Assembly: GCA_964383705.1 (NCBI GenBank)
Contig: CAYLHJ010000003.1
Span: 361 to 64,360 of the forward strand
DNA: 64,000 bases
DNA from: an uncultured Candidatus Saccharibacteria bacterium
GTDB taxonomy: Bacteria > Patescibacteriota > Minisyncoccia > Phycocordibacterales > Zambryskibacteraceae
Reading direction: 5' to 3'
In this document: positions 1-64,000 of the stretch, one piece after another
Position numbering within the stretch: position 1 is the first letter of the stretch
How the letters are laid out: each line of letters begins with the position of its first letter
Notes under the pieces: model-generated
Seen by the model: only the letters and a program-made list of their open reading frames with translations
What the model was told of the DNA's origin: nothing
Database searches by the model: none
Made by a program: the position numbers and the translations under genes

Positions 1-232
1 ATTTGGATTCCATTCGGCTTTTATTTCACCATGATTTTTCTCATAGCTACTTACAACATGAGTAAGGTGTTGCATTAGGCGCTTTGCGTGCTCTGGAGTA
101 AAAACTAATACTTGAGTATCGGCCCCAGAAGCAAGTGCTAAAAGAAAATGATCTTCACGGAAACCAGCCTTAGCATTATCACAAAATTTCTTGGAAGAGT
201 TCCTAAATAAATCTTCATTTAATAGATCCATA
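1..232 (-). CDS. Hypothetical protein, 5' part only (ATG at 232-230, runs off the window start); lies immediately downstream of lexA on the same strand
   Basis: My own minus-strand translation from the ATG at 232: MDLLNEDLFRNSSKKFCDNAKAGFREDHFLLALASGADTQVLVFTPEHAKRLMQHLTHVVSSYEKNHGEIKAEWNPN... The frame stays open to position 1. No family recognised. Confidence 0.3.
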
Positions 233-57158: not shown

Positions 57159-57797
57159 ATGCATTCTTTCTTTAAATCACTCACGAACAAAGAAAAGGCC
57201 GTGTTTAAAAAACTTAACACGCCCAAAAAGATCCAGGATTTTTTAGAGATAATACCTATAAATTTCGAGGAAAATGGTGATACGATTTTTTCCCCCACAA
57301 CAGTAATAAAGCGACGCAAAGCACATTGCTTAGAAGGCGCCCTTCTTGCTGCCGCAATACTTTACTATCACAAAAACGCACCAATCATCATTGATCTACA
57401 ACCGGGTGATTTCAAAGATGATGGTCATGCGATTGCTGTCTTTAAGCAAAAAGGAAAGTGGGGCGCAATCAGCAAAACAAACCATGCAACTCTTAGATTT
57501 CGTGATCCTGTTTACAAAAATCACAGAGAATTAGTAATGTCTTACTTCCATGAATATTTCTTGGATGATGGGGTCAAAACATTACGTTCTTATACTGTTT
57601 TTGATTTAAGAAAAATTAAAAAAAATTGGATTGCTAACACTGACAACCTTTGGTGTATAGATGAAGCCCTAAACAAACAAAAATATATAAAAATTATATC
57701 AAAAAAAGAAGTGAAATCATTAAGAAAAGCAGACAAAATAGAAATAGAATCCGGGAAAATAATTCAATGGAAAAAGAAAAGCCACCCAGAAGTCTGA
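57159..57797 (+). CDS. Hypothetical protein, possibly transglutaminase-like cysteine peptidase fold
   Basis: KAHCLEGALLAAAILYYHKNAPIII resembles the transglutaminase-like Cys motif context. Downstream His (DDGHAIAVF) and Asp follow. Weak assignment. Confidence 0.3.
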   Translation: MHSFFKSLTNKEKAVFKKLNTPKKIQDFLEIIPINFEENGDTIFSPTTVIKRRKAHCLEGALLAAAILYYHKNAPIIIDLQPGDFKDDGHAIAVFKQKGKWGAISKTNHATLRFRDPVYKNHRELVMSYFHEYFLDDGVKTLRSYTVFDLRKIKKNWIANTDNLWCIDEALNKQKYIKIISKKEVKSLRKADKIEIESGKIIQWKKKSHPEV

Positions 57798-57816
57798 TGA
57801 CTTTCCTTGGGTGGCC
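57767..57816 (-). terminator. Minus-strand intrinsic terminator GCCACCCA-N19-TGGGTGGC followed by TTTTCTTTTTCC
   Basis: An 8-bp GC stem followed by a U-run on the minus strand, just after the mini-cistron E stop. It overlaps the 3' end of the plus-strand gene. Confidence 0.5.
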
Positions 57817-57834
57817 AATGTCGCCGACAGGGAT

Positions 57835-57981
57835 CAATTCTTCTCGGTCCTGACCACGCGACTGGCGACCGTCTTTGGGGCGCTGACCGGGTGAAGCCTC
57901 CCATTGGGATCCTTCTCCCGAATCTCGAGACTCCCGCCCTGTTTGTACCAGTGATCAAGCTCTTCCCGACTCGGGGGCATA
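57835..57981 (-). CDS. GC-rich mini-cistron E: 48-aa hypothetical peptide (MPPSREELDHWYKQGGSLEIREKDPNGRLHPVSAPKTVASRVVRTEKN)
   Basis: SD AAAGAGG lies 5 nt before the ATG. An upstream TTGACT-N17-TAGTAT promoter is present. The GC-rich patch stops before the terminator hairpin. The competing tracked ORF (57764..57958) reads through the hairpin and U-tract and is rejected. Confidence 0.35.
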
Positions 57982-58025
57982 CTTGCCTCTTTGGTGGTAG
58001 GTGAAAAAATAGCTCTCTCCTTTCA

Positions 58026-58098: not shown

Positions 58099-58497
58099 CT
58101 AAAGAAAGGCAAGAGCAAAACCACTTAGATAAGCAACTATCCAAATCGGTAAAAACATGCACTTTGCCGATTTGATATGTAAAATCCGATACCTACTCCT
58201 AACCAACTGAATTTCAGAAAGAGCCTTTAGTCCAAGAGCTGCCTGAAAAAAGAAAGCTAGAATCGCCAATACAGATAGGGCGATGTGAACCTTGAGGGTT
58301 AAAGGAAATTGGATGAGAACAACCCCATTACCAGAAAGGAGTAGCCACATAAGATATGTCGCGTACATATCTGCAAAAAACCCAAAGAGGGCCGTCAGGA
58401 CATGTATGTTCCAGTGCCTCCTCGCTACGAAAAAAGCGAACAAATAAAGCAAGAAAGCAACCGACATCCAGATTTCAATCTGATGTTTGATCTCCAT
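58099..58497 (-). CDS. Polytopic membrane protein, hypothetical (4 TM)
   Basis: 132 aa and hydrophobic. No motif. Confidence 0.4.
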   Translation of the reverse strand: MEIKHQIEIWMSVAFLLYLFAFFVARRHWNIHVLTALFGFFADMYATYLMWLLLSGNGVVLIQFPLTLKVHIALSVLAILAFFFQAALGLKALSEIQLVRSRYRILHIKSAKCMFLPIWIVAYLSGFALAFL

Positions 58498-59252: not shown

Positions 59253-59288
59253 TAAGCAAAGAAAACCGCCCCATTATACTAGGGCGGT
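59253..59288 (-). terminator. Minus-strand intrinsic terminator CCGCCC-N10-GGGCGG followed by TTTTCTTTGC
   Basis: A GC stem immediately after the stop of 59302..60507. Confidence 0.55.
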
Positions 59289-59301
59289 GGCACTCTGGAG
59301 A

Positions 59302-60507
59302 TCAGTCAAAAAGAAATCCTTGAATGCCGTTCTCTTCTGGGGTAAATCCTGTGGACTGAACTTCTCTCTTACTTCGATTTATTTGAACAAAGATTGAAGG
59401 AGTGTTTATAAGCTTAAGTTGCTCGGGATTATCCCTCAATCTCGTTACAAGAACAATGCCCTTCACATAGTAGTAAGCCGAAGGAACATTATATTTACAG
59501 GACCTTTCTACTGGGCACTGTGCGCATGTCCTGTCATAACGTTCTTCAGCTTGCTTATTCCACACAACAGGAATTTCAGTAATGTGGCGACTTCTCGCCT
59601 TCCTTATCTTATCAATGGAACACTTATTGCCGGGATGATGTCTGCAATAGGTCCTCGACAAAAGCCAGAGCCCATCAGCCAAGAGTTGGGGATCTTCTTT
59701 CATCTCCACAACGTATCGTAAAGTAACCTCCCGAGCCAAGGGCAAGAATTTCTCGCGAGATTGACGGGGACGTCTCTTCATATTTTTCATGAAAAGAATT
59801 CCCGTAGAAACAAGCACTCGAAGAATGTGAAAATCAACAGGTACTGGATAAGCAAATGGCTTCACCATTCCCGCGTGAATCATGAAATAGGAAATCATGC
59901 TCACCATCTTGTGCATGAATCCATAGAAACCGTATGGCGTTGCCATGAGCTCATCGTGACTGAGTTTCTTGTTGCGAATGATGATATCGCACAAGGCGTC
60001 ATAATTACTCTTAGCAGATGCGTATGATTCCCAAGATAGCTCGGCATTCTTATCCGCATCAACAAAAAGTTTGCGCGGATCAGATTCCCAGAACCGGCCA
60101 AGTTTTATTGCATTCCAAACCCAATGACGTTTTACTTCATTAACATTTGCCCCAAGGCCATACTCGCGCAAAACTTTTTCGAGCCAGTTTATAACCAGCT
60201 CGATTTCGTATTGCTCGAGGTCTACAAAATTCTCCGGGAAAAACACTTCCGGATAATCCGTGTAGAGCTGACCCATGCTAGCAATGGCAAATTGGCTATT
60301 AATGCCACCTTTCATGTAAAGCTCAATAAACCAAAGGAATAGGGCGTGTTCCCTACTTCCCCATATAAGTCCTTGGGGAAGATTTTGTGGATCCTGAACG
60401 AGTGGTTTGTCGTAAGGCTTAACCTTTCGACGCACGGCATCCAAGATAGATGGGAAAACCACCCGCTTGGCAAGGCCGTATCTTTTCCTGATCGGTTGCC
60501 CGGGCAT
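59302..60507 (-). CDS. GC-elevated hypothetical protein (401 aa) with a C-terminal Cys cluster (C-x7-C ... C-x2-C-x5-C)
   Basis: A TATAAT -10 and a GAGGGA SD lie upstream. Codon composition is visibly GC-richer than neighbouring genes. The Cys cluster is CRHHPGNKC...CAQCPVERSC. No MTase, NTase or helicase motifs recognised. Confidence 0.5.
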   Translation of the reverse strand: MPGQPIRKRYGLAKRVVFPSILDAVRRKVKPYDKPLVQDPQNLPQGLIWGSREHALFLWFIELYMKGGINSQFAIASMGQLYTDYPEVFFPENFVDLEQYEIELVINWLEKVLREYGLGANVNEVKRHWVWNAIKLGRFWESDPRKLFVDADKNAELSWESYASAKSNYDALCDIIIRNKKLSHDELMATPYGFYGFMHKMVSMISYFMIHAGMVKPFAYPVPVDFHILRVLVSTGILFMKNMKRRPRQSREKFLPLAREVTLRYVVEMKEDPQLLADGLWLLSRTYCRHHPGNKCSIDKIRKARSRHITEIPVVWNKQAEERYDRTCAQCPVERSCKYNVPSAYYYVKGIVLVTRLRDNPEQLKLINTPSIFVQINRSKREVQSTGFTPEENGIQGFLFD

Positions 60508-60643
60508 TTTTCCCTCACTTGAGTGTGAAAGTGCTAATTAGTCTCAGGGCATTATATGTGCTCTAAGTTCTTTGTCCACTAGCCTACTGTAAATTGAACT
60601 CTTATAATGCTTCTAGAAACGAACATACACATAAGGAGGGCTT

Positions 60644-61399
60644 GTGCGCGAAATCGCCAATTATAATTGGCGCCGATCGCGCCAAAAAGACACCCAAATC
60701 AAGGCAGGAAGGATTTACGAACATCTTGTCGCCCAAGTTCTGGGTTGTGAAATATCAAGGCAGGACGAATACGAATACGCAGATTTACACTCAATTGACT
60801 TGGGTATTCGCGTGGAGGTAAAAGCGCGAGGAGACAACAACCCTTTCGGTCTGCACACAGAACAAATGGATCAGTATGAGAATGACCTTCCATTTCCACT
60901 CAGTTATACACTCTATGCCCTAGTCCCATATCGAAGTCGGAGGTGGATAAAGACTGGAGAAGGAAGGCCGAGAAGGTTCAGTAACAAAACAACCATGATC
61001 TCAATGCTCCGGTTTCTGAAAACAGACCAGGAGAGAAATGAGTTCTGGGCGGAAAATGTAGAATTCGTCTATCTACTTGACTTTCGAATAGTGAAAGGCC
61101 TCTTGACCCTGCTGGGTAGCAAAAAGGGTCATTTCGCTGGCCGTAAATCGGAAGATGCTCTGGTTGTAAATAGGGGCACCTTAACTTCTCTTTTTCAAGA
61201 CGAGTCCTTCGCAACAGCTATGCGAACCCTTGGCTTGAGTGCATCTGGGTGGGCAAAAGGCACTTACCCAACCAGAACCCGATTTACGCTGGATGGACAA
61301 CGCCTCAGTTCAAATTTCACCCTCATAACTGTGCTCCGAAGGAGTCTTCATGCGAAGATAGCCTCTCAGCTCTGCAACAAAGCCGTCACGCATGTGTGA
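60644..61399 (+). CDS. GC-elevated hypothetical protein (251 aa) with an N-terminal PD-(D/E)xK nuclease-like motif
   Basis: GTG start with consensus SD AGGAGG 4 nt upstream. A TTATAAT -10 lies upstream. The motif ...EYEYADLHSIDLGIRVEVKAR (D...EVK) is followed by a roughly 150-aa unknown C-terminal domain. Confidence 0.45.
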   Translation: MREIANYNWRRSRQKDTQIKAGRIYEHLVAQVLGCEISRQDEYEYADLHSIDLGIRVEVKARGDNNPFGLHTEQMDQYENDLPFPLSYTLYALVPYRSRRWIKTGEGRPRRFSNKTTMISMLRFLKTDQERNEFWAENVEFVYLLDFRIVKGLLTLLGSKKGHFAGRKSEDALVVNRGTLTSLFQDESFATAMRTLGLSASGWAKGTYPTRTRFTLDGQRLSSNFTLITVLRRSLHAKIASQLCNKAVTHV

Positions 61400-61412
61400 C
61401 GGCTTTCAATTT
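61382..61412 (+). terminator. Intrinsic terminator GCCGTCAC-gcatgt-GTGACGGC followed by TTTCAATTT
   Basis: An 8-bp stem spanning the stop codon of 60644..61399, followed by a T-rich run. Confidence 0.5.
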
Positions 61413-61438
61413 GAAATTAAGTAATACAAATATTGCCT

Positions 61439-61963
61439 TTAAGGCTGAAACAAGTTTTCAGGCATAAAGCGCACACTTTTAACTACCGGGAATTGTTTTG
61501 CGGTCGCTTCAATTTGCGCCCACAAAATAGCAACTCTGCAAGAACCACCCCCTGTTTTGTTTTGGGGGTCGTCAAATATGAGCGTGGCAACTCCATCAGC
61601 AATATAGGCACTTTTAAGTGTGACACCAGAAAGCGGAAATTCACTTTCAATGCCTGATATCTTTTCTTCATCAGAAACATCACCCCGCAGAAGAAGTCTT
61701 ACAGCGTCCGCAAGTGGGGTTGTTGTTTTAGGAATAAATCGCTCGACGGCAACAAGTCCGTTCCTACTGCATTGCACTCCATCTGGACCTTGATCAAGAG
61801 TGGGATTATAAAGATGCAATTTGATGGGCACCTCGCTCTGATAAAAATTACCTTCCTCTGGGGCTGAAATCTGGGATATATAAAAATACCCAGTTGCTAA
61901 AATAAAAACAACAACAATTATTATCAGAGATTTTTTCATAAAATATTTATATAAATGTAGCAA
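61439..61963 (-). CDS. GerMN-domain-like lipoprotein or membrane-anchored protein
   Basis: N-terminal TM/signal. The C-terminal VATLIFDDPQNKTGGGSCRVAILWAQIEATAKQFPVVKSVRFMPE resembles the GerMN domain. Confidence 0.4.
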   Translation of the reverse strand: MLHLYKYFMKKSLIIIVVVFILATGYFYISQISAPEEGNFYQSEVPIKLHLYNPTLDQGPDGVQCSRNGLVAVERFIPKTTTPLADAVRLLLRGDVSDEEKISGIESEFPLSGVTLKSAYIADGVATLIFDDPQNKTGGGSCRVAILWAQIEATAKQFPVVKSVRFMPENLFQP

Positions 61964-61993
61964 ACAGACTCACGCAGATTTCTCTCAGAATCA

Positions 61994-62389
61994 CTAGTTG
62001 AAATTAACAACAAAATTATACATTCCCATAGCACAGAGTCCCTGAAGACGTTCTCCGGCCCCTGGCACGCCCACATTAATAACTTCTTCTCCTGTCTGAG
62101 CCAATACTTTTTGAAAACCGAGTGAGCGGATAACAAGCGACGCTGAACAATCATAAGTGCCATCCGTCTTCACGACCAATTTTGTCGGAATTCCCGCCTG
62201 AGCACTAGACACTTTTGGAAAATATCCACCCTTTGCCTTTACAGTAACATATTGAACTCCTTCTTTTATTTCGATATTTTGTGTTGCTTCATCCACTCCA
62301 TTATTATCTGATTTTGAGCCACCAAGAAAAATGAAGCCCATCCCTAAGACAAGAATAAATGTGACAATAATGGTCGCAGATTTATTCAT
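61994..62389 (-). CDS. Small secreted or membrane-anchored beta-sandwich protein, possibly cupredoxin-like metal-binding; hypothetical
   Basis: 131 aa with an N-terminal TM helix. Conserved Cys/Met residues (YDC...LCAMGMY). The gene is adjacent to copper-handling genes. Confidence 0.3.
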   Translation of the reverse strand: MNKSATIIVTFILVLGMGFIFLGGSKSDNNGVDEATQNIEIKEGVQYVTVKAKGGYFPKVSSAQAGIPTKLVVKTDGTYDCSASLVIRSLGFQKVLAQTGEEVINVGVPGAGERLQGLCAMGMYNFVVNFN

Positions 62390-62396
62390 AAAATGA

Positions 62397-63404
62397 TTAT
62401 ATGTTAAATAGAGGTTTAATAATTCCTAGTCCAGCAAGTCCAGCAAGAAGGGCGAACAACCCAAGACCGATTACAACTACTCCTGCTGATTTAAAAAACA
62501 AAGGAGCATGTTTGCTATGAGCAAATGATGCCGAGCCGAATGAAAGAAAAGCGAGCATTGGCAATGTTCCAAGCGAAAATGCAAACATAATTAAAAATCC
62601 AGACATAAAGCCGCCGCTTCCCAAGGCGGCGACTTGCATTGATTGTGTAAAACCGCAAGGCAAGAAAAATGTACCGAATCCGATAATGAGCGGAGTGAGC
62701 GTTTTATGCTCTATTTTTCTAAAAAAATCGAATATTCTAGAAGGTAGTGCGATTTTATTTTTCTCAAAAACTCCAGCTAAATTTAGCCCAAGCAACAACA
62801 TCACTATGGAAGCCAATAGTCCCAAGATTGCTGTAAATGTAAAATTTATGCCAATAGCACTGCCGAGCGCCCCCAAAACTCCGCCTAATATTGCGAAGCT
62901 GACCAACCTTCCTGTGTGAAAAAGAAAGAAAGCCTTAGTGTCACTTACATTATCCTGTGACACTTTTGCTGAAAGAGATAGGACCAAGCCTCCGACAATG
63001 GCGAGGCAACTTGATACTGAAGCTATAAGACCAATAATAAAACTTGTTACTGGTGTTGTTTGGCCACCTATACCAAGATTTAAAATTCCTGATTTTTGTA
63101 ATAGAAAAAATAAAATCAGAAACGCAAGCCCGATTGGCACTGCTTTCCAAATAACTTCGCTACTTTGTTTTTCCTTTGTAATCTTATCTACTGACAACGA
63201 ATAGCCGTGGGATTTTATCTTACTTGTAAGTGTTATGGCTAACTCTTCGATGTCTTGATCACTGTCAGTTTCAATATCGACAGTCTCATCTTTCAAATTA
63301 ACCCGCACATTCTTTACAAAACTCTCTCCACTTAAAACGTCTTCAATAAAAATTTTGCATGAAGCGCAGTGAGTACCAGAAACGTGGAATGTGTATTTTT
63401 TCAT
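62397..63404 (-). CDS. Heavy-metal-associated (HMA) domain fused to a CcdA/DsbD-like transmembrane thiol-disulfide transporter
   Basis: N-terminal HMA motif GTHCASC (GMxCxxC-like). The 6-TM core has a conserved Cys in two separate helices, as in CcdA. Confidence 0.65.
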   Translation of the reverse strand: MKKYTFHVSGTHCASCKIFIEDVLSGESFVKNVRVNLKDETVDIETDSDQDIEELAITLTSKIKSHGYSLSVDKITKEKQSSEVIWKAVPIGLAFLILFFLLQKSGILNLGIGGQTTPVTSFIIGLIASVSSCLAIVGGLVLSLSAKVSQDNVSDTKAFFLFHTGRLVSFAILGGVLGALGSAIGINFTFTAILGLLASIVMLLLGLNLAGVFEKNKIALPSRIFDFFRKIEHKTLTPLIIGFGTFFLPCGFTQSMQVAALGSGGFMSGFLIMFAFSLGTLPMLAFLSFGSASFAHSKHAPLFFKSAGVVVIGLGLFALLAGLAGLGIIKPLFNI

Positions 63405-63406
63405 AT

Positions 63407-64000
63407 TTATAATTTCTTGCTCTTAATTCGTAATGAATTTGATACAACTGATACGCTAGACATTGCCATCGCAAATCCAGCAAATACTGGATTCAGGAGC
63501 CATCCGAAAATTGGGTACAATACACCGGCCGCAAGCGGAATACCCACGATGTTGTAGATAAAAGCCCAGAAAAGATTCTGCTTAATTCCGCGCATAGTAA
63601 TCTTAGAAAGTTTGATAGCTTTTACAAGTTTTGATATATCTCCACCTAGAAGTGTAATACCAGCTGACTCTATCGCCACATCTGTTCCTGTCCCCATAGC
63701 AATGCCTACATCCGCCTGAGCAAGAGCGGGGGCATCGTTTACTCCATCACCAGCCATTGCCACCATCCGACCTTGTGACTGCAATTCTTTTATCTTTGCC
63801 AATTTATCTTGCGGCAAGACATGAGCGACCACATCATCGATGCCAACCATCGAAGCCATGTGCTTTGCGGCTTTTTCATCGTCGCCGGTAAGCATGACTA
63901 CTTTGATCCCCAGTTTATGGAGATTGGCAATCGCCTGTTTTGATTCAGGTTTTATTTCATCTGCCACCATGACAAAGCCGAGCACTTTTTCTTTTGTCGC
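63407..64000 (-). CDS. copA: Copper-translocating P1B-type ATPase, C-terminal part (gene continues beyond the window end)
   Basis: Hinge motif [35 protein letters not shown] and the final two TM helices. The N-terminal portion lies outside the window. Confidence 0.85.

What the first reader, a model, noticed from the sequence alone, without database searches (positions are those of the whole stretch)
59253..61412. GC-elevated divergent gene pair: Cys-cluster protein (401 aa) plus PD-(D/E)xK-motif protein (251 aa), a candidate novel defence or mobile module
Seen in sequence: two divergently transcribed genes share a roughly 135-nt promoter region, each with its own TATAAT-like -10 and SD. Both are visibly GC-richer than the surrounding AT-rich genes and are bracketed by intrinsic terminators (59253..59288 and 61382..61412). 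The 251-aa protein has an N-terminal motif EYEYADLHSIDLGIRVEVKAR consistent with the D...(D/E)xK core of restriction-endonuclease-fold nucleases, followed by an unassigned domain of about 150 aa. The 401-aa protein has no Walker, SAM-binding (FxGxG, D/NPPY) or NTase motifs that I can see. It ends with a Cys cluster C-x7-C...C-x2-C-x5-C, reminiscent of Fe-S or Zn ligation in DNA-repair glycosylases. Inference: this is a compositionally foreign two-gene cassette combining a nuclease-fold protein with a metal-cluster partner. It could be an orphan restriction or anti-phage system or a remnant of a mobile element. No integrase or repeat boundaries were found.
Basis: partly seen in the sequence, partly recalled or inferred. 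Interest (0 to 1): 0.6.

Follow-up and report, generated by a model that had tools for sequence, protein, structure and literature searches.

The report
Iron-sulfur DNA glycosylase with nuclease partner
Two unannotated, divergently transcribed genes from a Patescibacteria (CPR) genome encode a new family of iron-sulfur, helix-hairpin-helix DNA glycosylase-like enzymes and a restriction-endonuclease-like partner that travel together across many CPR genomes, probably as an "excise a base, then cut the DNA" module whose role (defence or repair) is still open.

Summary
There are two real genes: A (59302-60507, minus strand, 401 aa) and B (60644-61399, plus strand, 251 aa). They share a 136-nt divergent promoter region, end in two hairpin terminators and have raised GC3.

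Neither protein matches Pfam, NCBIfam, PADLOC or PHROGs.

A belongs to the HhH-GPD glycosylase superfamily. Its AF2 model (pLDDT 89) matches Qng1/DUF2419 and MutY/MUTYH in Foldseek (probability 1.00). Lys200 and Asp225 are invariant in 78/78 homologues. A Cys-x39-Cys-x2-Cys-x5-Cys set aligns with the endonuclease III 4Fe-4S cysteines.

B keeps D47, E58-x-K60 and Q74 in 94-100% of 97 diverse homologues, in the secondary-structure order of a PD-(D/E)xK nuclease. No fold search confirmed that fold.

The pair is conserved. B lies next to A in 16 of 75 genomes, in every orientation. Six of the 7 B contigs that could be judged carry A. Their distance matrices correlate (r = 0.65). Other A clades carry a ParB-like partner (19/75) or none.

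All homologues are in Patescibacteria. None is on phages, plasmids or viral contigs, and no defence island or methyltransferase lies nearby.

I favour a glycosylase-plus-nuclease module. Defence (0.4) and lineage-specific repair (0.35) are nearly tied.

The parts
59255..59288 (-). Intrinsic terminator of gene A: 9-bp GC-rich stem (59265-59288) followed by a UUUUCUUU tail
   Evidence: -20.8 kcal/mol, z = -4.0
59302..60507 (-). Gene A, 401 aa: founding member of an unannotated, Patescibacteria-restricted family of Fe-S HhH-GPD-superfamily glycosylase-like proteins
59806..59958 (-). A residues 184-234: helix, hairpin (GFYGF), helix carrying invariant Lys200 (59908-59910), Pro-rich loop YPVPV, and invariant Asp225 (59833-59835) capping the next helix. 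This is the HhH-G/P-D catalytic signature.
   Evidence: AF2 secondary structure; invariance in 78/78; alignment to endonuclease III D138 and to Pa-AGOG D172
59497..59646 (-). A residues 288-337: conserved four-Cys set C288-x39-C328-x2-C331-x5-C337, the predicted [4Fe-4S] cluster loop with an insertion after the first Cys
   Evidence: 77/78; hhalign to endonuclease III C194/C197/C203; weak EndIII_4Fe-2S hits
60508..60643 (.). Shared divergent promoter region. For A: -35 at 60573-60578, -10 at 60551-60556, and a GAGGG Shine-Dalgarno sequence. For B: -10 at 60603-60608 and AAGGAGG Shine-Dalgarno sequence at 60633-60639.
   Evidence: about 95% conserved in L076 and L078
60644..61399 (+). Gene B, 251 aa: member of an unannotated family (110 clusters at 50% identity) that is almost always encoded next to an A homologue
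60698..60931 (+). B residues 19-96: putative PD-(D/E)xK nuclease core. E26 lies in helix 1. D47 is at 60782-60784, E58-V-K60 at 60815-60823, Q74 at 60863-60865. Y91 and Y96 lie on the next strand.
   Evidence: conservation 94-100% of 97; AF2 secondary-structure order; best PDB profile hits, not significant, are NhoI and the Hjc-like ST1444, aligned on these motifs
60956..61396 (+). B residues 105-251: unassigned C-terminal region (alpha/beta, conserved D146 and W203). Candidate DNA-binding or A-binding domain.
   Evidence: no sequence or fold match; conservation
61379..61415 (+). Terminator-like hairpin of gene B (11-bp stem overlapping the stop codon) with a weak UUUCAAUUU tail
   Evidence: -18.1 kcal/mol, z = -4.5, repeat I3

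Best explanation
The two genes encode a two-protein "excise-and-cut" DNA module.

**Protein A.** A is a [4Fe-4S] helix-hairpin-helix (HhH-GPD superfamily) DNA glycosylase. It binds duplex DNA through the HhH and the Fe-S cluster loop and flips a non-canonical base into its pocket. It then cleaves the glycosidic bond using Asp225 and Lys200. It is probably bifunctional: a Schiff base on Lys200 would give beta-elimination and a nick.

**Protein B.** B is a Mg-dependent PD-(D/E)xK endonuclease (D47, E58, K60) with an extra C-terminal domain. It works with A on the same DNA and converts the abasic or nicked product, or the flagged site, into a strand break.

**Role.** I favour, only narrowly, a restriction-like accessory role: attack on DNA that carries bases absent from the host genome, such as hypermodified or uracil-type phage DNA. 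This would be like a split, catalytically active counterpart of the END nucleases and Brig1.

**Shown:** the fold class of A; invariance of its catalytic and cluster residues; conservation of B's motif; the conserved, co-evolving gene pair.

**Inferred:** the nuclease fold of B; physical or functional coupling; substrate; biological role.

**My estimates:**
- A is an HhH-GPD Fe-S protein: 0.9
- A is an active DNA glycosylase: 0.7
- B is a PD-(D/E)xK nuclease: 0.7
- A and B act together: 0.85
- defence-type role: 0.4
For: **Protein A**
- No curated family matches.
- The AF2 model has pLDDT 89 and pTM 0.86.
- Foldseek against the PDB gives only HhH-type glycosylase folds with probability of at least 0.9: Qng1/DUF2419 (E = 2.7e-4) and MutY/MUTYH (E = 6e-3 to 0.3). 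An AGOG-like protein, 1xg7, follows at probability 0.2.
- The best profile hit in the PDB is Pa-AGOG, aligned on PVPVD against its catalytic D172.
- hhalign against E. coli endonuclease III aligns VDFH with VDTH (D138) and C328/C331/C337 with C194/C197/C203. The endonuclease III query sequence was verified as 2ABK.
- K200, D225, G193 and F194 are invariant in 78/78 homologues; the four Cys are present in 77/78.

**Protein B**
- K60 is conserved in 97/97, Q74 in 96/97, D47 and E58 in 94/97.
- The secondary-structure order is helix, strands, helix, strand around these residues.
- The two best PDB profile hits are the restriction enzyme NhoI and an Hjc-like resolvase, aligned on the motif.
- Three members give weak RE_Eco47II hits.

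**Coupling**
- B is adjacent to A in 16/75 GTDB loci, in divergent, tandem and convergent arrangements.
- Six of 7 informative contigs found through B carry A.
- Mantel correlation of the A and B distance matrices is r = 0.65, p <= 5e-4.
- Partner type follows A clades.

**Accessory character**
- Only 75 of 185,579 species genomes carry A. All are Patescibacteria or unclassified MAGs, apart from one bin labelled Gammaproteobacteria, L048, probably mis-binned.
- The partner is modular: B, a ParB-like protein, or an unknown 330-aa protein.
- The pair sits in different genomic contexts.
- A distant B homologue sits beside DruA, NurA-like, DUF87 and DpnI-like genes.

**Precedent**
- END nucleases combine a nuclease with an EndoIII/OGG-like sensor of hypermodified phage DNA (PMC12191111).
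Against: - Fold searches do not recognise B as PD-(D/E)xK. All its profile hits have E >= 0.5.
- Neither A nor B matches PADLOC.
- No methyltransferase or defence genes lie nearby. Neighbourhoods are housekeeping.
- uvrC or uvrA flank A homologues in three separate clades, which points to repair.
- About half of the A homologues have no adjacent partner.
- A's phylogeny roughly follows taxonomy, which suggests vertical descent with loss.
- END sensors have lost the catalytic residues, whereas A keeps them.
- No homologues occur on phages, plasmids or viral contigs.
- Substrate and activity are untested.
Confidence: 0.4

Rival explanations
1. The biochemistry is the same, but the role is lineage-specific base-excision repair. 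A removes a damaged or mismatched base from the cell's own chromosome. B, or the ParB-like protein in other clades, is a dedicated incision or processing factor that replaces or supplements an AP endonuclease, or works like Vsr or MutH.
For: - The catalytic Lys and Asp and the Fe-S cluster are fully conserved, as in endonuclease III and MutY.
- Neighbourhoods are housekeeping.
- A lies between uvrC and uvrA in L009 and L010, and next to uvrC in L037 and L039. xth lies within 10 kb in 6 loci.
- A's tree broadly follows taxonomy.
- The family is absent from phage, plasmid and viral collections. PADLOC is negative.
- Between close relatives A and B diverge at the same rate as the flanking genes: 91-93% identity against 90-96%.
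Against: - The family is very rare and patchy: 75 species genomes in all.
- To my knowledge, no known repair glycosylase has a dedicated PD-(D/E)xK or ParB-like operon partner.
- The partner is modular and swaps between clades.
- B's weak similarities are to restriction enzymes.
Confidence: 0.35
2. B is not a nuclease. It is a DNA-binding, regulatory or loading partner for A, functionally equivalent to the ParB-like partner in other clades. A alone carries all the chemistry.
For: - Foldseek gives no PD-(D/E)xK match.
- In 19 other loci a ParB_N + HTH_ParB protein occupies the same position.
- ParB-like proteins activate other DNA base-modifying enzymes (PMC13229309).
- E58 is replaced by Gln in a few homologues next to A.
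- Many A homologues work without any adjacent partner.
Against: - Near-invariant D47, E58, K60 and Q74 across 97 very divergent sequences (mean column identity 16%) are hard to explain without catalysis.
- The secondary-structure order fits the nuclease core.
- The top PDB profile hits are nucleases aligned on the motif.
Confidence: 0.15
3. A is not a DNA enzyme. It is a nucleoside or nucleotide N-glycosylase of the Qng1/DUF2419 type, used for base salvage in an auxotrophic CPR cell. B would supply nucleic-acid fragments.
For: - The best Foldseek hits are Qng1 structures (E = 2.7e-4).
- The K...D spacing resembles the K199/D231 positions mutated in the Qng1 PDB entries (titles).
- From general knowledge, CPR bacteria depend on salvage.
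Against: - A carries an endonuclease III/MutY-type Cys-x2-Cys-x5-Cys Fe-S loop and an HhH motif. From general knowledge, these are DNA-binding elements and Qng1 lacks the Fe-S loop.
- There is no match to the DUF2419 model at E <= 1.
- TM-scores to the MutY core are at least as good as to Qng1: TMt 0.59-0.63 against 0.44-0.52.
- The partners, a nuclease-like and a ParB-like protein, are DNA proteins.
Confidence: 0.05
4. One reading: a horizontally acquired orphan restriction cassette or the remnant of a mobile element.
For: - GC3 is about 2 SD above the window mean.
- The pair sits in different contexts in different genomes.
- Gene content immediately to the right of B differs between the window and a relative whose B is 93% identical.
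Against: - There is no integrase, transposase, flanking repeats or methyltransferase.
- There are no homologues on phages, plasmids or viral contigs.
- Both genes are intact and conserved at the same level as their neighbours.
- The GC3 excess of A recurs in the same direction in 79% of 52 genomes, so it is a property of the gene, not a mark of recent transfer.
Confidence: 0.05

Closest known systems
Endonuclease III (Nth) and MutY: [4Fe-4S] HhH-GPD DNA glycosylases
   Same: - Same fold class (Foldseek probability 1.00 to MutY/MUTYH).
- HhH hairpin followed by a helix that carries a Lys at the endonuclease III K120-like position.
- Pro-rich loop and invariant Asp, aligned with D138.
- The last three cluster cysteines have the identical x2/x5 spacing.
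   Different: - No significant sequence match to HhH-GPD (PF00730) or to any NCBIfam model.
- About 190 extra N-terminal residues.
- The first-to-second Cys spacing is 39 residues in the window protein, with longer insertions in some homologues, instead of 6.
- Restricted to Patescibacteria.
- Frequently has a dedicated partner gene.
AGOG (archaeal 8-oxoguanine glycosylase) and Qng1/DUF2419 (queuosine-5'-monophosphate glycosylase)
   Same: - Best sequence-profile hit (Pa-AGOG, on the catalytic PVD segment) and best fold hits (Qng1).
- Similar Lys...Asp arrangement.
- Weak AGOG Pfam hits in 2 members.
   Different: - All matches are below family thresholds.
- From general knowledge, AGOG and Qng1 have no Fe-S cluster. 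A has one of the endonuclease III type.
- Qng1 acts on a free nucleotide, whereas A has DNA-binding elements.
END nucleases: antiphage enzymes with a nuclease domain fused to an inactivated EndoIII/OGG-like sensor (PMC12191111)
   Same: - They combine an EndoIII-like HhH module with a nuclease module.
- The paper reports that the HhH module combines with several different nuclease types. That resembles the modular partners seen here.
   Different: - END is a single polypeptide whose HhH domain has lost the catalytic residues.
- Here the two modules are separate proteins, the catalytic Lys and Asp are invariant, and an Fe-S cluster is present.
- END genes lie in defence islands of Proteobacteria. 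This pair lies among housekeeping genes of CPR bacteria.
- I did not test homology to END directly, because no END sequence was at hand.
Brig1-type defence glycosylases and restriction glycosylases (R.PabI)
   Same: This is an analogy from general knowledge and from PMC12191111 only. In both cases a DNA glycosylase disables foreign DNA by base excision, and strand breaks follow at abasic sites.
   Different: - From general knowledge, these belong to other folds (not HhH-GPD).
- They are single proteins.
- R.PabI comes with a methyltransferase.
- I did not test any of this here.
PD-(D/E)xK nucleases such as NhoI, Eco47II and Hjc
   Same: - D...(D/E)xK...Q motif order, and a helix-strands-helix-strand core.
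- These are the top, although not significant, profile matches.
   Different: - No significant sequence or fold match.
- An extra 150-aa C-terminal region of unknown fold.
- Obligate linkage to a glycosylase-like gene.
ParB-dependent DNA base-modifying enzymes (5mYOX-ParB, PMC13229309; DpdA-DpdB from general knowledge)
   Same: In 19 of 75 loci the A homologue is paired with a ParB_N + HTH_ParB protein instead of B. A base-flipping DNA enzyme paired with a ParB-fold activator is a known arrangement.
   Different: - This concerns sister clades, not the window itself.
- The enzymes involved are dioxygenases or transglycosylases, not HhH glycosylases.

Membership tests
HhH-GPD DNA glycosylase superfamily (protein A) | Helix-hairpin-helix followed by a Gly/Pro-rich loop and a conserved catalytic Asp | tested here: met
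   Helix 184-188, hairpin GFYGF, helix 199-211, YPVPV loop, D225 capping helix 226-234. G193, F194, K200 and D225 are invariant in 78/78. D225 aligns with endonuclease III D138 and with Pa-AGOG D172.
HhH-GPD DNA glycosylase superfamily (protein A) | Overall two-domain all-helical glycosylase fold | tested here: met
   The AF2 model has pLDDT 89. Foldseek against the PDB gives probability of at least 0.9 only to Qng1 and MutY/MUTYH, with TM-scores of 0.36-0.63.
HhH-GPD DNA glycosylase superfamily (protein A) | Significant match to the curated sequence models (Pfam HhH-GPD, NCBIfam nth/mutY) | tested here: not met
   No hit at E <= 1 for the window protein. Across 35 members there are only sub-threshold EndIII_4Fe-2S (4 members, best E 0.085) and AGOG (2 members, best E 0.11) hits. 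A is therefore a new family within the superfamily, not a member of an existing family.
Endonuclease III / MutY [4Fe-4S] subgroup (protein A) | Cys-x6-Cys-x2-Cys-x5-Cys cluster motif at the C-terminus of the catalytic domain | tested here: inconclusive
   Four Cys are conserved in 77/78. The last three have the canonical x2/x5 spacing and align with C194/C197/C203. The first spacing is 39 residues in the window protein and longer in some homologues, instead of 6. Metal content cannot be tested here.
Bifunctional glycosylase/AP lyases (Nth, OGG1, AGOG) (protein A) | Nucleophilic Lys at the start of the second HhH helix | tested here: met
   K200 is invariant in 78/78 and lies at the N-terminus of helix 199-211, directly after the hairpin. 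Schiff-base chemistry cannot be tested with these tools.
Qng1 / DUF2419 (protein A) | Match to the DUF2419 model | tested here: not met
   Qng1 is the best fold match, but no DUF2419 Pfam hit appears at E <= 1 (window protein) or E <= 0.5 (35 members). A also carries a conserved four-Cys motif. Absence of an Fe-S cluster in Qng1 rests on general knowledge.
PD-(D/E)xK nuclease superfamily (protein B) | Conserved D...(D/E)xK catalytic motif | tested here: met
   D47 94/97; E58 94/97, plus 2 Asp and 1 Gln; K60 97/97; Q74 96/97.
PD-(D/E)xK nuclease superfamily (protein B) | alpha-beta-beta-beta-alpha-beta core, with D at the start of strand 2 and (D/E)xK on strand 3 | tested here: inconclusive
   The AF2 model (pLDDT 76) gives helix 19-33, short strand 35-36, strand 48-50 (D47 just before it), strand 55-63 (E58, K60), strand 68-71, helix 72-80 (Q74), strand 89-96. 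The order fits, but I could not inspect the 3-D geometry.
PD-(D/E)xK nuclease superfamily (protein B) | Fold-level or profile-level match to a solved member | tested here: not met
Known anti-phage defence systems (PADLOC-DB v2.0.0) | Match of either protein to a defence-system model | tested here: not met
   The window proteins give no hit at E <= 1. The 97 B-family members give only four single-member hits at E 0.015-0.04. The ParB-like partners also give only scattered weak hits. That database predates Brig1 and END.
END nucleases | Nuclease domain fused to an EndoIII/OGG-like domain that has lost its catalytic residues | tested here: not met
   A and B are separate genes. A keeps K200 and D225 in all 78 homologues. 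Definition taken from PMC12191111.
Restriction-modification systems | Cognate DNA methyltransferase encoded with the nuclease | tested here: not met
   The neighbours are Bac_transf, VanY and Germane-domain genes and copper-resistance genes. No methyltransferase family recurs in the 75 neighbourhoods. One small-molecule-type methyltransferase lies near the pair in L084 and L085.

The most novel reading that the evidence does not exclude
**Main reading.** The A family defines a new, CPR-specific class of glycosylase-centred DNA surveillance or defence systems.
- A catalytically active Fe-S HhH glycosylase both senses and attacks DNA that carries non-canonical bases.
- It is wired modularly to interchangeable second components: a PD-(D/E)xK nuclease as in this window, a ParB-fold NTPase, or an unknown 330-aa protein.
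- This would be the first defence-type system described from sequence in Patescibacteria that is built on an active HhH-GPD enzyme.

**Bolder variant, which I put at about 0.05.** A shares its fold with the queuosine glycosylase Qng1 and has ParB-like partners, as DpdA has DpdB. It might therefore act on 7-deazaguanine-type bases in DNA, or even exchange bases rather than only remove them.
Probability: 0.4. Interest if true: 0.75.

Novelty: new variant of a known kind. Interest (0 to 1): 0.58.

Why it matters
Both proteins are "hypothetical" everywhere and belong to no curated family. This work still assigns A to a well-understood enzyme class, with its catalytic Lys and Asp and its Fe-S ligands pinpointed, so the hypothesis can be tested directly by mutagenesis and standard glycosylase assays.

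The HhH-GPD superfamily has been studied for decades. A branch with a greatly expanded cluster loop and a dedicated, co-evolving nuclease-like partner would add a new architecture to it.

Patescibacteria have tiny genomes and few recognisable repair or defence genes. A lineage-restricted glycosylase module would help fill either gap.

If the defence reading is right, three things follow:
- Glycosylase-based immunity (Brig1, END) would extend to an active HhH enzyme in a two-component format.
- The module could become a new tool for detecting modified bases.
- The alternation between a PD-(D/E)xK partner and a ParB-fold partner would give a natural experiment on how base-flipping enzymes are coupled to downstream effectors.

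Tried and rejected
**Curated libraries.** Pfam, NCBIfam, PADLOC and PHROGs gave nothing for either protein, whether run on single sequences or on family members.

**Fold searches**
- Foldseek of B against the PDB and BFVD gave only noise.

**B domains against the PDB**
- The profile of B's N-terminal domain gave only non-significant nuclease hits.
- The profile of B's C-terminal domain gave only a spurious Top7 hit.
- hhalign of the B family against the ParB-like partner family showed no relationship.

**Building a comparison profile.** I tried to build an endonuclease III family profile from the fetched loci. Only one nth gene was present, so A was compared with the single E. coli sequence.

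**Mobile-element tests**
- No repeats flank the pair.
- tblastn found no homologues in phage or plasmid collections.
- IMG/VR held no homologues of A or of close B relatives. The wide B alignment was too diverse to scan.

**Empty-site test.** I scanned metagenomes with the flanking Bac_transf protein. It found only 25-52% identical genes without synteny, so the test was uninformative.

**Apparent repair link.** An early uvrA cluster in 10 loci turned out to be mostly other ABC-type ATPases. Strict searching leaves uvrA in 2 loci and uvrC in 4.

**Third gene.** The Germane-domain gene next to B is not a conserved third component. Among the fetched DNA it recurs only in L078, the contig whose A protein is identical to the window's. 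One DNA-less contig carrying the distant B homologue P0080 also has a weak Germane-domain gene beside B.

**GC-rich spacer.** The spacer at 57800-58000 matched no Rfam family.

Full report
**1. The observation**

The two ORFs exist as described.
- Gene A runs 59302-60507 on the minus strand (401 aa, ATG start).
- Gene B runs 60644-61399 on the plus strand (251 aa, GTG start, 4 nt after AAGGAGG).

The 136-nt spacer holds a near-consensus promoter for A: TGGACA-16-TATAAT, 11 of 12 matches. For B it holds TATAAT but no good -35. The spacer is about 95% identical in two related contigs, including these elements.

Both terminator hairpins fold far better than shuffled controls (z = -4.0 and -4.5). 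B's U-tail is weak.

GC is 44.4% for A and 47.5% for B, against 39.1 +/- 3.8% for 60 window ORFs. GC3 is 0.455 and 0.476 against 0.333 +/- 0.06, which ranks them 3rd and 2nd of 60.

The D...EVK motif and the Cys pattern are present. The conserved set is C288, C328, C331 and C337. No repeats bracket the pair. The window has a single tRNA, far away, and no Rfam hits nearby.

**2. Both proteins are unannotated**

Pfam, NCBIfam, PADLOC and PHROGs give nothing meaningful for either protein.
- A has 38-41 homologues in the 5.8-billion-protein collection. All lack Pfam domains, and every one that carries a name comes from Patescibacteria.
- A scan of one genome per GTDB species found 75 loci. Almost all are Saccharibacteria, Paceibacteria/Parcubacteria, Kazan, Wolfe-, Falkow-, Campbell-, Nomura-, Lipton-, Zambryski- or Moranbacteria, or unclassified MAGs. 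One bin, L048, is labelled Gammaproteobacteria and is probably mis-binned.
- B has 8 close homologues. An exhaustive profile search of 1.84 billion representatives found 110 clusters. Nearly all are single-domain proteins of about 220-270 aa.

**3. What A is**

The 35-sequence alignment shows several conserved blocks:
- GFxGFxxKMVSM
- PVPVDFHVLR
- a Cys after LWLLSRxxC
- TCGxCPVxxxC

The AF2 model is confident: pLDDT 89, pTM 0.86. Its secondary structure places K200 at the start of the helix that follows a GFYGF hairpin. D225 sits as the N-cap of the next helix, after a Pro-rich loop. This is the HhH-G/P-D signature.

Foldseek against the PDB returns only HhH-type glycosylase folds with high probability:
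- Qng1/DUF2419 (E = 2.7e-4 to 9e-3)
- the E. coli MutY core and mouse and human MUTYH (E = 6e-3 to 0.07)
- Geobacillus MutY
- an AGOG-like Pyrococcus protein, much weaker (probability 0.2)

The top hit of the profile search against PDB sequences is Pa-AGOG (E = 0.5, not significant), aligned on PIPVD, which contains its catalytic D172.

I compared the family profile by hhalign with E. coli endonuclease III. The comparison aligns VDFH with VDTH (D138) and C328/C331/C337 with C194/C197/C203, at P = 0.003 and probability about 10%.

Weak Pfam hits among family members point the same way: EndIII_4Fe-2S in 4 members and AGOG in 2.

In 78 homologues, G193, F194, K200, M201, D225 and R230 are invariant, and the four Cys are present in 77.

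I conclude that A founds a new family of the HhH-GPD superfamily.
- It has an endonuclease III-type Fe-S loop whose first spacer is expanded from 6 residues to 39 in the window protein, and more in some homologues.
- It retains both residues used by bifunctional glycosylase/lyases.
- It is not a member of any existing curated family.

**4. What B is**

Across 97 very divergent homologues (mean column identity 16%) conservation is concentrated on a few residues:

| Residue | Conserved in |
|---|---|
| K60 | 97/97 |
| Q74 | 96/97 |
| Y96 | 95/97 |
| D47 | 94/97 |
| E58 | 94/97 |
| Y91 | 92/97 |
| D146 | 91/97 |

The AF2 model has pLDDT 76 from a shallow alignment. It gives this order:
- helix 19-33
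- short strand 35-36
- strand 48-50, with D47 just before it
- strand 55-63, carrying E58 and K60
- strand 68-71
- helix 72-80, carrying Q74
- strand 89-96

That order is the one expected of a PD-(D/E)xK core.

Profile searches against the PDB put two PD-(D/E)xK enzymes on top, aligned on exactly these motifs: the restriction enzyme NhoI and the Hjc-like ST1444. Their E-values are 0.5-1. Three members give weak RE_Eco47II hits.

Foldseek found nothing in the PDB or BFVD. More sensitive libraries were unavailable. The C-terminal 150 residues remain unassigned.

I rate the nuclease assignment at about 0.7.

**5. The pair is a conserved unit**

Iterative searches of ORFs in the 75 A loci find a B homologue directly next to A in 16. 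The arrangements are divergent, tandem (one with overlapping stop and start codons) and convergent.

Coming from the B side, 6 of the 7 contigs that could be judged carry A as the divergent neighbour. One further contig, for P0080, was cut at the relevant end.

The exception is a distant B homologue. It sits beside a DEAD-box helicase, DruA, a NurA-like protein, a DUF87 ATPase and a DpnI-like protein.

Pairwise distances of A and B correlate over 21 pairs (r = 0.65, Mantel p <= 5e-4). B evolves faster: 23% mean identity against 38% for A.

In other clades of the A tree the adjacent gene differs:
- a protein of about 400 aa with ParB_N and HTH_ParB domains, in 19 loci
- an unknown family of about 330 aa, in 4 loci

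About 36 loci show no recognisable partner. Partner type follows A subclades.

**6. Context and mobility**

Around A homologues the recurrent neighbours are housekeeping genes: SmpB, NusG, L11, aminoacyl-tRNA synthetases and BipA. There are no restriction-modification or known defence genes.

In the window the neighbours are a sugar transferase, VanY, a Germane-domain protein and a copper-resistance cluster. In three other Parcubacteria the pair sits before a BipA-TruB-HisS block. The unit has therefore moved, or its surroundings have been rearranged.

uvrC and uvrA flank A in L009 and L010, and uvrC lies next to A in L037 and L039. An initially larger "uvrA" cluster was an artefact of ABC-ATPase similarity.

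No homologue of either protein occurs in 50,697 phage records or 72,556 plasmids. IMG/VR contigs hold no homologue of A or of close B relatives.

Between the window and a close relative (L076), A is 91% identical and B 93%, while the flanking genes are 90-96%. Both genes are thus maintained like their neighbours.

A's GC3 exceeds that of its neighbours in 79% of 52 genomes (mean z = +0.93, Wilcoxon p = 4e-6). B partners behave likewise, whereas ParB-like partners do not. This one-directional bias is not what random horizontal transfer predicts. I leave it unexplained.

**7. Mechanism**

The best-supported reading is a two-step module. A recognises and excises a base and probably nicks the DNA through Lys200. 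B then cleaves the DNA at or near that site.

Evidence for an accessory, restriction-like purpose:
- rarity and patchiness (75 of 185,579 species genomes)
- a modular partner
- B's weak resemblance to restriction enzymes
- the precedent of END nucleases, in which an EndoIII/OGG-like module senses hypermodified phage DNA for an attached nuclease (PMC12191111)
- ParB-fold activators of DNA base-modifying enzymes (PMC13229309)

Evidence against that purpose, and for ordinary repair:
- housekeeping context
- links to uvrC and uvrA
- a tree that broadly follows taxonomy
- a full catalytic complement
- negative PADLOC results
- absence from mobile elements

I put defence at 0.40 and lineage-specific repair at 0.35. 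The remainder is spread over a non-catalytic role for B, a Qng1-like salvage role for A, and a mobile-element remnant.

**8. Novelty and verdict**

The "foreign cassette or mobile remnant" framing is not supported.

This is a new family-level variant within two known superfamilies, in a new two-component arrangement restricted to Patescibacteria. It is not a categorically new kind of system.

Interest is moderate to high: 0.58. The catalytic hypothesis is sharp and testable, and either outcome, a new repair pathway or a new glycosylase-based defence in CPR bacteria, would be informative.

Noticed in passing
window 57800-58000: A non-coding stretch of about 200 nt with much higher GC (about 55%) than its surroundings. 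It lies between a transglutaminase-like gene (57159-57797, +) and a small membrane-protein gene (58099-58497, -). There is no tRNA and no Rfam match at E <= 1. Folding z is -2.4 on the + strand and -1.45 on the - strand. It may be an unrecognised small RNA or a gene remnant.
   Followed up: partly
L005:11111-12316 and 18 other loci (e.g. L008, L021, L055, L057, L058, L060, L070-L073): In 19 of 75 genomes the A homologue is paired with a ParB_N + HTH_ParB protein of about 400 aa instead of B, again in all orientations. The conserved GHRR and EN motifs suggest an NTP-binding ParB fold.
   Followed up: partly
L019:821-1813, L036:8763-9788, L041:7535-8470, L048:9007-9978: A third family of about 330 aa, with no Pfam match, is directly adjacent to A homologues in four genomes.
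   Followed up: partly
L081:4580-12300: A distant B-family member (P0100) has no A nearby. It sits between a DEAD/ResIII helicase and genes for DruA, a NurA-like 401-aa protein, a DUF87 ATPase and a DpnI-like protein. This is a candidate defence island that reuses the B-type module.
   Followed up: partly
52 of the A loci L001-L075, and window 59302-61399: The A gene, and B where present, has systematically higher GC3 than its neighbours in genomes ranging from about 33% to 60% GC. Mean z is +0.93, 79% of values are positive, p = 4e-6. The cause is unknown. Simple foreign origin does not explain it.
   Followed up: partly
window 61400-62000 compared with L076:3683-5400: Immediately to the right of B, the window has a Germane-domain gene (61439-61963, -). 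The relative whose B is 93% identical has two small ORFs and a 282-aa gene instead. The copper cluster beyond is 92-96% conserved. This looks like a local indel hot spot.
   Followed up: partly
window 61994-64000: A copper-handling cluster: cupredoxin-like protein, HMA + DsbD_2 membrane protein and P-type ATPase. A CsoR-type repressor lies further on in the related contig L076.
   Followed up: no
window 60667-60685: A 19-nt palindrome, TTGGCGCGATCGGCGCCAA, lies inside codons 8-14 of gene B, just after the start. It is conserved in related contigs. It might be an operator or a translational element.
   Followed up: no
window 61914-61950 and 62364-62400: A 37-nt direct repeat (78% identity) covers the 5' ends of two adjacent small genes on the minus strand. 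It probably reflects related signal peptides or promoters.
   Followed up: no
window 60322-60324 (A residue 62); L067:4004-6821: The window's A protein has Glu at a position where 73 of 78 homologues have Cys. Separately, one Saccharibacteria MAG (L067) carries two A paralogues in tandem.
   Followed up: no
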